A stretch of DNA of 22,956 nucleotides from a virus (Duplodnaviria; Heunggongvirae; Uroviricota; Caudoviricetes): IMG/VR virus record IMGVR_UViG_3300045988_018328; one strand, 5' to 3'. The notes beneath the pieces are model-generated. The model searched no databases, had not been told where the DNA came from, and was given only the letters and a program-made list of their open reading frames with translations. The position numbers were made by a program, and so were the translations under genes. Positions 3,027 to 3,869 of this stretch are shown here, piece after piece; position 1 is the stretch's first letter; each line of letters opens with the position of its first letter.

Positions 3027-3848
3027 TCACTGTGCAGTTTTCGCTGATCGATTTTCAGCTCTAAATTCAAGAACCGTTTCAATATTTCTTTCCTTCAGCA
3101 TATCAATAACATTTTTATTCATTTGACTATCACTGGTTAATAACTGGTAAACGTTGCTTCTCTCTTTATCAGAGTTTTCTTTAACAGCTGCTTTGCATGC
3201 CAAATGCTTATTGAAATTTTCTACATCGCTAGTACAGGAATTTACGGCTGCTGATGAAATATCAGACGCTGAAGAAACACCGTCATCCAAACGTTTTATA
3301 GCATTTTCTATACATGAGTTAAGGGAATAAACGACAACTGAGCGATACCCTTCAGACGCACACCATTCTAAATTTCTTGAAGGATCGAGTGGTTTTACTT
3401 CGCTGGATTGAATTAACTTGTCAAAAACTGACTTATATTCAATCTGTTTTTTATCTATAGCCCATACTTCAGTAGCTGATTTATAATTCCCCGTATGCCT
3501 ATTAACATCAAATCCATGTTTTATAAGCAAATCTGCCCATGAAAGATTTATTGATTCATTGTTATGAGGCCATTTTCCTGTCAGAACCGCCCCCATAGAC
3601 CCCATATATCCGCCATATGATGGTATAGCACCATGGCTCAGTAACTTCTCTGCAACCACAGGGCAATTAATTACATAAGAGGCGTAAAGCCCATTCCATA
3701 AAGCCCCTCTATAGTAATCGCCACGATTAGGTTCTTTTAAGTCGATAGCCTTTGATAATTGTTCGCACGTTTTGCATGCATCAAAGTTATCCTTATTGCA
3801 TTGCAATGAACTGGCAGCTGTAGGATTTACAGAGACTATTGAAAGCAC
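3027..3848 (-). CDS. Secreted/periplasmic Cys-containing accessory protein of unknown function; 5' end out of frame with an upstream ATG at an A7 tract
   Basis: The 273-aa ORF starts at GTG with no credible RBS. The ATG at 3868..3866 followed by A7 is in a different frame and stops after 6 codons. One extra A would give MKKNFGIVLSIVSVNPTAASSLQC..., a complete signal peptide. The gene is AT-richer than the structural genes. Confidence 0.55.
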   Translation of the reverse strand: MLSIVSVNPTAASSLQCNKDNFDACKTCEQLSKAIDLKEPNRGDYYRGALWNGLYASYVINCPVVAEKLLSHGAIPSYGGYMGSMGAVLTGKWPHNNESINLSWADLLIKHGFDVNRHTGNYKSATEVWAIDKKQIEYKSVFDKLIQSSEVKPLDPSRNLEWCASEGYRSVVVYSLNSCIENAIKRLDDGVSSASDISSAAVNSCTSDVENFNKHLACKAAVKENSDKERSNVYQLLTSDSQMNKNVIDMLKERNIETVLEFRAENRSAKTAQ

Positions 3849-3869
3849 TATGCCAAAATTTTTTTCATC

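What the first reader, a model, noticed from the sequence alone, without database searches (positions are those of the whole stretch)
3027..3869. Secreted Cys-containing accessory protein whose signal peptide is out of frame at an A7 tract
The only long frame (273 aa) starts at GTG without an RBS. Twenty nucleotides upstream an ATG is followed by A7 and terminates after 6 codons; one more A would yield MKKNFGIVLSIVSVNPTAASSLQC..., a textbook signal peptide fused to the long frame. This is either slipped-strand phase variation at the homopolymer, an inactivating frameshift, or a sequencing/assembly error. The gene is the last one of the structural operon before the bidirectional terminator and is AT-richer than its neighbours.
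Basis: seen in the sequence. Interest (0 to 1): 0.6.

Follow-up and report, generated by a model that had tools for sequence, protein, structure and literature searches.

The report
Ten-base deletion breaks a prophage gene
A prophage gene for a secreted protein of unknown function has lost 10 bases in its signal-peptide region, an ordinary one-off inactivating deletion rather than switching at the run of seven A's.

Summary
On the minus strand, ATG (3868-3866), A7 (3865-3859) and a stop after six codons precede a 273-codon frame starting at GTG 3848. About 100 complete E. coli genomes, phage EC.W1-9 and 31 metagenome or viral contigs carry the intact gene. It reads ATG-A7-TAAATTTGTT-TTTTGGC and encodes MKKINLFFGIVLSIVSVNPTAASSLQC, 283 aa. 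The intact gene also has A7, so the window's tract has not changed length. The window instead lacks the 10 bases that follow the tract. This is the only indel in 22,956 bases against the closest prophage (8 mismatches). It recurs only in two ENA metagenome assemblies that are identical to the window wherever they overlap it. No complete genome shows A6 or A8, and Morganella and Serratia homologues have no A-run. Phase variation is therefore not supported. The gene (PHROG 6118) encodes a Cys-rich, all-helical, two-domain secreted protein. It always sits directly after the T7 gp16-like internal virion gene in epsilon15-like prophages of four genera. Its function is unknown; a role in the periplasm in phage entry or exclusion is a guess. 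The frame junction lies on G-AAA-AAA, so some rescue by -1 ribosomal frameshifting is not excluded.

The parts
3027..3868 (-). Disrupted copy of the PHROG 6118 gene (283 aa when intact): secreted, Cys-rich, two-domain helical protein
   Evidence: 99-100% identical to intact genes in EC.W1-9 and E. coli prophages apart from a 10-nt gap. phrog_6118 E=1e-200.
3848..3868 (-). Remnant start: ATG, A7, then out-of-frame codons ending at TAG 3850-3848, which overlaps GTG 3848
   Evidence: MKKILA*.
3858..3859 (-). Deletion junction. Ten nt (TAAATTTGTT, or equivalently AAATTTGTTT) are missing between the A7 and the remaining T4
   Evidence: Alignment with EC.W1-9. Junction strings tabulated.
3859..3865 (-). 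A7 tract: unchanged in length relative to intact alleles; part of a G-AAA-AAA motif
3027..3848 (-). Residual 273-codon frame from GTG. Lacks the n-region and half of the h-region of the signal peptide
   Evidence: The identical product P0023 is called in 3 public contigs.
3003..3020 (-). Intrinsic terminator shared with the convergent small gene
   Evidence: 7-bp stem, 6 GC pairs, T-run. The same stretch is annotated as a terminator in phiV10.
3870..7259 (-). Upstream T7 gp16-like internal virion protein gene. Its stop TAG 3872-3870 lies 1 nt before the ATG
   Evidence: phrog_342 E=2e-235. ORF list.

Best explanation
The window is part of an epsilon15-like temperate podophage (prophage) of E. 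coli. The last gene of its late structural operon is a facultative accessory gene, PHROG 6118. When intact it encodes a 283-aa precursor. That precursor has a Sec-type signal peptide (MKK / INLFFGIVLSIVSV / NPTAAS) followed by a disulfide-rich, all-helical protein of two domains. In this copy a single 10-nt deletion removed codons 4-6 plus one base, directly after the A7 tract. Translation from the ATG therefore stops after six codons. The remaining frame can only start at a GTG with no ribosome-binding site, and its product lacks a working export signal. The gene is most likely a recent, private loss-of-function allele (a pseudogene), not a phase-variable locus. Shown: the deletion, its rarity, the stability of A7 and the conserved gene position. 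Inferred: loss of function, and the origin of the deletion by replication slippage across a weak A6/T6 hairpin whose loop is the deleted segment. The normal role of the protein is also inferred. My best guess (about 30%) is a periplasmic binding protein acting on phage DNA-entry machinery, i.e. blocking superinfection or re-infection.
For: Deletion: alignment with EC.W1-9 shows A7 retained and TAAATTTGTT absent. The intact ORF is 283 aa in EC.W1-9 and in RefSeq WP_000723561.1.

Rarity: no complete E. coli genome carries the deletion. All top full-length hits span 1011 nt against 1001 nt of query. 31 of 31 metagenome and IMG/VR contigs have the intact 21-nt segment. All 31 IMG/VR family members have a full-length ORF with a signal peptide.

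Real rather than error: the window differs from the SCZE5 prophage by 8 mismatches and exactly one gap over 22,956 nt. The same junction is in ENA ERZ1755950 NODE_369 and ERZ28587101 scaffold_384.

No phase variation: queries carrying A6 or A8 found no exact match in 105 genomes. The A7 query matched 66 exactly. Homologues in Morganella, Providencia and Serratia lack the tract.

Accessory nature: 37-38% GC against 47-51% in the neighbours. Only about 106 of 481 matching genomes hold the whole gene. Other independent lesions occur elsewhere: an A6 frameshift, a nonsense codon and an IS1 insertion.

Synteny: the gene lies directly after the 1129-1131-aa gp16-like gene in Klebsiella, Serratia and Morganella at 40-86% identity.

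Protein: the N-terminal signal peptide is present in all 14 aligned members, and there are 9 invariant Cys. The AlphaFold model is all-helical with pLDDT 76.
Against: No reads are available, so heterogeneity within the sample cannot be excluded. The two ENA assemblies may derive from the same sample as the window, so independent confirmation of the deletion is not certain, and coverage is low (about 5x for NODE_369).

Loss of function is inferred. The short ORF's stop overlaps the GTG (TAGTG), which permits re-initiation. G-AAA-AAA could also allow -1 frameshifting into the long frame.

The functional guess has no direct support. There is no hit in PADLOC, Pfam or NCBIfam and no significant fold match. 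No promoter-like site was found upstream that would give expression in the lysogen.
Confidence: 0.85

Rival explanations
1. Slipped-strand phase variation at the A7 tract: the tract changes length reversibly and switches the secreted protein ON and OFF.
For: A homopolymer lies at codons 2-4. One public 2-kb Logan contig (ERR10498073) has A6 with the 10 nt present, which also breaks the frame. A few draft-genome proteins have odd N-termini, MNLFFG... and MFGIVLS....
Against: The window's tract is A7, the same as in intact alleles. None of about 100 complete genomes has A6 or A8. 31 of 31 metagenome and viral contigs have A7. The tract is absent in Morganella and Serratia orthologues. A7 runs occur at chance frequency in the window. 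A tract of 7 is short for a contingency locus (own knowledge).
Confidence: 0.03
2. Assembly or sequencing artefact: the real DNA is intact and the 10 nt were lost in silico.
For: The source is a low-coverage metagenome (cov 4.97 for NODE_369). The region is low-complexity A/T. All records carrying the deletion are identical to the window wherever they overlap it and may come from one sample.
Against: It is the only indel in 22,956 nt against the closest genome, and no homopolymer errors occur elsewhere. Three differently bounded assembly records (the window, NODE_369 and scaffold_384) give the same junction. The 21-nt segment contains no repeat long enough to collapse a de Bruijn graph (inference).
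Confidence: 0.08
3. The deleted allele is still expressed by recoding. Either -1 ribosomal frameshifting on G-AAA-AAA, or insertion of one A during transcription, gives MKKNFGIVLSIVSV... with a shortened but usable signal peptide.
For: The long frame is in the -1 phase relative to the ATG, and the junction lies on X-AAA-AAA. C-AAA-AAA alone gave 25-60% -1 frameshifting in E. coli and rescued 1-nt deletion constructs (PMC1851650).
Against: The motif is there by descent, since intact alleles have it too. There is no downstream stimulatory structure, and the RNA is less structured than its shuffles (z +1.4). Single-tRNA A-AAA shifts run at only 0.3-1% (PMC1851650). The site is at codons 2-3, a context not tested in that paper, which used T7 overexpression. 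The two-frame layout is not conserved in any homologue.
Confidence: 0.12

Closest known systems
PHROG 6118 / RefSeq WP_000723561.1 (hypothetical protein of epsilon15-like E. coli prophages and phage EC.W1-9)
   Same: Same gene. 99-100% identity outside the deletion, the same position after the gp16-like gene and the same terminator.
   Different: The window copy lacks 10 nt in the signal-peptide codons and is out of frame. The family itself has no assigned function.
Phase-variable contingency genes with homopolymer tracts (slipped-strand mispairing)
   Same: A homopolymer lies in the first codons of a gene for a secreted product.
   Different: The tract length is invariant among about 130 copies. 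The lesion lies outside the tract and the tract is not conserved in orthologues.
Phage morons and accessory genes at the end of late operons (e.g. lambda lom/bor, Cor, T5 Llp; own knowledge)
   Same: Low GC and its own terminator. Presence or absence varies among related phages. The product is exported and the gene sits at the end of the virion gene block.
   Different: No promoter-like site was found upstream. The start codon is 1 nt after the stop of the upstream gene, so it looks co-translated with late genes. The product is not a lipoprotein (Q, K or E precedes the first Cys). There is no sequence similarity to these proteins.
T4 Spackle (periplasmic inhibitor of the gp5 tail lysozyme; PMC7677548)
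   Same: Small to medium periplasmic phage protein. Here it is genetically linked to ejection proteins that carry a cell-wall-targeting domain. This is offered only as a functional analogy.
   Different: No sequence or fold similarity was found. Spackle is an early gene, whereas this gene sits in a late operon. No phenotype is known.
-1 frameshifting at X-AAA-AAA (pDEST17 C-AAA-AAA, dnaX A-AAA-AAG, IS1; PMC1851650)
   Same: G-AAA-AAA sits at the frame junction, and the needed shift is -1.
   Different: It is not conserved as a two-frame arrangement. There is no stimulator and it lies immediately after the start codon.

Membership tests
Phase-variable (contingency) locus | Repeat tract whose length differs among close relatives and switches the frame | tested here: not met
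   A7 in 66 exact, 5 near-exact and 28-34 ST131-type complete genomes, with no exact A6 or A8. 31 of 31 contigs have A7. A single A6 occurs in one 2-kb Logan contig.
Phase-variable (contingency) locus | The frame disruption in this copy lies in the tract | tested here: not met
   The tract is unchanged; the 10 nt after it are deleted.
Mutational pseudogene of PHROG 6118 | Full-length homology to an intact family with a frame-breaking lesion | tested here: met
   phrog_6118 E=1e-200 over 1-283 for the intact form. The 10-nt gap is the only indel.
Mutational pseudogene of PHROG 6118 | No functional product made | not testable with these tools
   Needs expression data. Re-initiation at TAGTG or a -1 shift on G-AAA-AAA cannot be excluded.
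Sec-exported (SPase I) protein | Positive n-region, hydrophobic h-region of 10-15 residues, small residues at -3 and -1, and no lipobox | tested here: met
   Read by eye on alignment A2: MKK + INLFFGIVLSIVSV + NPTAAS. All 14 members have such a leader. The residue before the first Cys is Q, K or E, so there is no lipobox. No signal-peptide predictor was available.
Ankyrin repeat proteins | Match to Pfam Ank models | tested here: not met
   No Ank hit for any of the 14 members even at E<=10.
Ankyrin repeat proteins | Ankyrin-like helix-turn-helix repeat fold | tested here: inconclusive
Programmed -1 ribosomal frameshift | Slippery heptamer X XXY YYZ at the frame junction | tested here: met
   G-AAA-AAA in the zero frame; the long frame is in the -1 phase.
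Programmed -1 ribosomal frameshift | Two-frame arrangement conserved in homologues, with a downstream stimulator | tested here: not met
   All homologues are single-frame. No stable downstream structure was found.
Known anti-phage defence or superinfection-exclusion proteins | Sequence or fold match to a described system | tested here: not met
   PADLOC gave 0 hits. There was no significant PDB or BFVD match.
Phage moron | Compositional outlier with its own terminator and patchy distribution | tested here: met
Phage moron | Own promoter active in the lysogen | tested here: inconclusive
   No sigma-70-like site on the minus strand between 3870 and 4600. A consensus scan only.

The most novel reading that the evidence does not exclude
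The deleted allele is not dead. The deletion put the frame junction exactly on a G-AAA-AAA -1 slippery site. A fraction of ribosomes, or of transcripts carrying an extra A, would then produce a full-length precursor MKKNFGIVLSIVSV... with a shortened signal peptide. A normally co-translated late gene would thereby become a low-level, recoding-dependent one. Separately, the intact family could be a new kind of periplasmic factor tied to the T7-like ejection proteins of epsilon15-like temperate phages.
Probability: 0.12. Interest if true: 0.45.

Novelty: new member of a known kind. Interest (0 to 1): 0.15.

Why it matters
For the scan, this is mainly a caution. A frame break next to a homopolymer looked like phase variation, but comparison with intact copies shows an adjacent 10-nt deletion and a stable tract. 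Biologically it is one more sporadic loss of a dispensable prophage accessory gene.

The mildly useful by-product concerns the family itself, PHROG 6118. It is a signal-peptide-bearing, disulfide-rich, two-domain protein. It is strictly syntenic with the gp16-like ejection protein gene across Escherichia, Klebsiella, Serratia and Morganella, and each of its domains also exists as a stand-alone secreted protein. It is uncharacterised, and natural null alleles like this one could help in testing its role.

Tried and rejected
- Pfam, NCBIfam and PADLOC scans of the intact protein gave nothing usable.
- A PDB sequence profile search gave only coiled-coil noise.
- The genome-contig scan with the family alignment found no confirmed relative.
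- Context look-ups of stand-alone domain proteins P0037 and P0084 returned contigs under 1 kb.
- A paper search for the sample accessions found nothing.
- Hairpin-driven deletion: the intact segment folds into an A6/T6 stem whose loop plus 2 nt equals the deleted segment. At -2.7 kcal/mol it is no better than shuffles (z -0.66), so this is kept only as a weak inference.
- A lipoprotein reading was rejected because there is no lipobox.

Full report
**1. What is in the sequence**

The feature lies on the minus strand.
- The upstream 1129-codon gene (3870..7259) ends at TAG 3872-3870.
- One base later comes ATG 3868-3866, followed by A7 (3865-3859).
- The frame then reads AAA AAA ATT TTG GCA TAG, giving MKKILA and a stop.
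- The G of that TAG (3848) is the first base of the GTG that opens the only long frame, 3027..3848 (273 codons).
- No purine-rich ribosome-binding site precedes the GTG.
- One additional A would fuse the ATG to the long frame.

The other descriptive points also hold.
- A terminator lies at 3020-3003, with a 7-bp stem (6 GC pairs) and a T-run. The same stretch is annotated as a terminator in phiV10.
- The gene has 37-38% GC against 47-51% in its neighbours.

**2. What the defect really is**

The window is an epsilon15-like prophage. The region matches Escherichia phage EC.W1-9 at 99%, and parts match phiV10, TL-2011b and phiv142-3.

In EC.W1-9 the gene is an intact 852-nt ORF starting 1 nt after the upstream stop. 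The same holds in E. coli SCZE5, where it is RefSeq WP_000723561.1.

Alignment shows the difference:
- intact: ATG AAAAAAA TAAATTTGTT TTTTGGC
- window: ATG AAAAAAA TTTTGGC

The A7 tract is therefore identical in the two. The window lacks the next 10 nt.

**3. How common the lesion is, and whether the tract varies**

*Complete E. coli genomes*
- A 1001-nt query found 106 genomes with the whole gene. All top hits span 1011 nt, so they contain the 10 nt. A deleted copy would have ranked first at about 100% identity, and none did.
- Short queries differing only in tract length were then run. The A7 query matched 66 genomes exactly. Five more differed by one substitution at the same length. A further 28 carried the ST131-type allele, which spans 84 nt: an in-frame T6-to-T3 change that still has A7 (L051).
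- The A6 and A8 queries had no exact match in 105 genomes.

*Metagenome and viral contigs*
- A gapped pattern scan found 9 JGI metagenome contigs and 22 IMG/VR contigs. All 31 carry the intact 21-nt segment.
- All 31 IMG/VR family members have a full-length ORF with a signal peptide.

*Where the deletion does occur*
- It was found only in two ENA metagenome assemblies: ERZ1755950 NODE_369, and ERZ28587101 scaffold_384 of SAMEA4431918. Both are 100% identical to the window over 13.8 kb.
- Their contig boundaries differ from the window's, so at least three assembly records agree. They may all derive from one sample.

*Comparison with the closest prophage*
- Against the SCZE5 prophage the whole window has 8 mismatches and exactly one gap, which is this deletion.
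- This argues against an indel-prone assembly and for a recent, private mutation.

*Other genera*
- The A-run is absent from Morganella (ATGAAATATATA) and Serratia (ATGAATATAAAG).
- It is A6, after a G substitution, in one Klebsiella allele.
- A7 runs occur in the window at chance frequency, 6 found against 5.8 expected.

Phase variation at the tract is therefore not supported.

*Other lesions in the family*
Sporadic independent lesions do occur elsewhere, which fits a dispensable accessory gene:
- an A6 frameshift in one 2-kb Logan contig;
- a TCA-to-TAA nonsense codon;
- an IS1 insertion.

**4. Consequence of the deletion (inferred)**

The product from the GTG would begin MLSIVSVNPTAAS... 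It has no basic n-region and only six hydrophobic residues. Export should fail, and a protein with nine conserved cysteines would stay in the reducing cytoplasm.

Two escape routes cannot be excluded.
- The stop of the short ORF overlaps the GTG (TAGTG), which permits re-initiation.
- The long frame is in the -1 phase, and the junction lies on G-AAA-AAA. In E. coli, C-AAA-AAA alone gave 25-60% -1 frameshifting and rescued 1-nt deletion constructs, whereas single-tRNA A-AAA shifts give 0.3-1% (PMC1851650).

Three points speak against programmed use. The motif is inherited from the intact allele. No downstream structure is present (z +1.4). No homologue has a two-frame layout.

On the origin of the deletion, the intact segment can form an A6/T6 stem whose loop plus two bases equals the deleted segment. 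That fold is no better than shuffles, so hairpin-bypass slippage is only a weak inference.

**5. What the gene is**

*Neighbouring genes*
The upstream genes are T7-like.

| Window coordinates | Identity |
|---|---|
| 11045..13516 | tail tubular B-like |
| 10581..11045 | gp13-like |
| 10006..10581 | gp14-like (PF24072) |
| 7259..10006 | gp15-like |
| 3870..7259 | gp16-like |

*Database matches*
The target matches PHROG 6118, of unknown function, over its whole length (E=1e-200). It matches nothing in Pfam, NCBIfam or PADLOC.

*Distribution*
- The word-indexed search of the 5.8-billion-protein database found only 22 clusters.
- All named hits come from Escherichia, Klebsiella, Serratia, Morganella and Providencia. 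Full-length members are 270-283 aa, and the shorter entries are truncated copies.
- All 14 aligned members have a signal peptide and nine invariant Cys. The residue before the first Cys is Q, K or E, so the product is not a lipoprotein.
- Only one isolated phage carries the gene.

*Position*
- The position is strictly conserved. In Klebsiella, Serratia and Morganella prophages, down to 40% identity, the gene lies directly after the 1129-1131-aa gp16-like gene.
- Within E. coli epsilon15-like prophages its presence is patchy. About 106 of 481 matching genomes have the whole gene.

*Structure*

*Domains*
A profile search of 1.84 billion representatives found 68 hits and showed two modules.
- The N-domain (about residues 27-160) carries the motifs C..F..CK.C, GDYYRGALWNGLY and KWPH.N. 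It exists as stand-alone secreted proteins of 160-170 aa.
- The C-domain (about residues 170-283) carries the motif LDDgISPASDIA flanked by Cys. It exists as stand-alone secreted proteins of 110-150 aa.
- None of the stand-alone members scanned matches any Pfam family.

*Context of one stand-alone N-domain*
One stand-alone N-domain (L054, a proteobacterial MAG) sits at the end of a different kind of phage tail module. The tape-measure-like protein of that module shares an RGxRNNNPGNIE domain with residues 245-378 of the window's gp15-like protein (40% identity, E=4e-25). PHROG labels this domain endolysin or tail injection transglycosylase. A second stand-alone copy (L055) is not in a phage context.

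**6. Mechanism proposed for the intact gene (inferred, about 30% confidence)**

I propose a periplasmic binding protein, made with the late proteins. The start codon lies 1 nt after the gp16-like stop, and no promoter-like site was found. It would act on the DNA-entry machinery of incoming or released phages of the same kind. This is analogous in logic, not in sequence, to T4 Spackle (PMC7677548).

The support is limited to export, conserved linkage to the ejection protein genes and the L054 co-occurrence. No direct test was possible.

**7. Verdict**

The frame-shifting mutation reading is right in class, but the lesion is a 10-nt deletion next to an unchanged A7. Phase variation is not supported, and an assembly error is unlikely. 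This is an ordinary private pseudogene allele of a catalogued but uncharacterised prophage accessory gene, so interest is low. The residual points of interest are possible -1 recoding at G-AAA-AAA and the unknown role of PHROG 6118.

Noticed in passing
window 2836..2997 (+): A 53-aa small secreted peptide gene (MKKAFAALFVLLSLVASTQAFAGRCQHDSDTAADGSRCGGRSADSRPGGGGIR). It converges on the same terminator as the target gene. It is conserved at 96-98% in TL-2011b, phiv142-3 and HEMP4, where one record calls it a 'putative transmembrane anchored protein'. phiV10 matches only the terminator stretch.
   Followed up: partly
window 19268..19344 (+): A tRNA-Arg (anticodon TCT) inside the prophage, between the terminase and portal genes. 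It is also annotated in the SCZE5 prophage.
   Followed up: no
window 3870..7259 (-): RefSeq names the gp16-like internal virion protein 'DUF919 family protein'. That rests on a borderline Pfam hit (21.1 bits against a cut-off of 21, 46 residues) to a baculovirus family. PHROG 342 (internal virion protein) fits far better. The name looks spurious.
   Followed up: partly
window 7259..10006 (-), aa 245-378; L054:2071-3672: An RGLRNNNPGNIE... domain in the gp15-like protein is shared at 40% identity (E=4e-25) with a tape-measure-like tail protein of an unrelated prophage. That prophage also encodes a stand-alone copy of the target's N-domain. This may be a functional linkage, but it rests on one case.
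   Followed up: partly
L005 (Logan ERR10498073), L048 (Logan SRR26874697), L049 (GCA_028436165.1): Independent inactivating lesions of the same gene in other samples: A7 to A6, a TCA-to-TAA nonsense codon, and an IS1 insertion about 190 nt into the gene.
   Followed up: partly
L051 (E. coli ST131) and 28-34 complete genomes: The ST131-lineage allele has an in-frame loss of one Phe codon (T6 to T3) in the signal peptide, and a different downstream gene (98 aa, same strand).
   Followed up: no
L095 (IMGVR_UViG_3300045988_031779): One family member reads through to 294 aa instead of 283, so the C-terminus is altered or the stop is lost.
   Followed up: no
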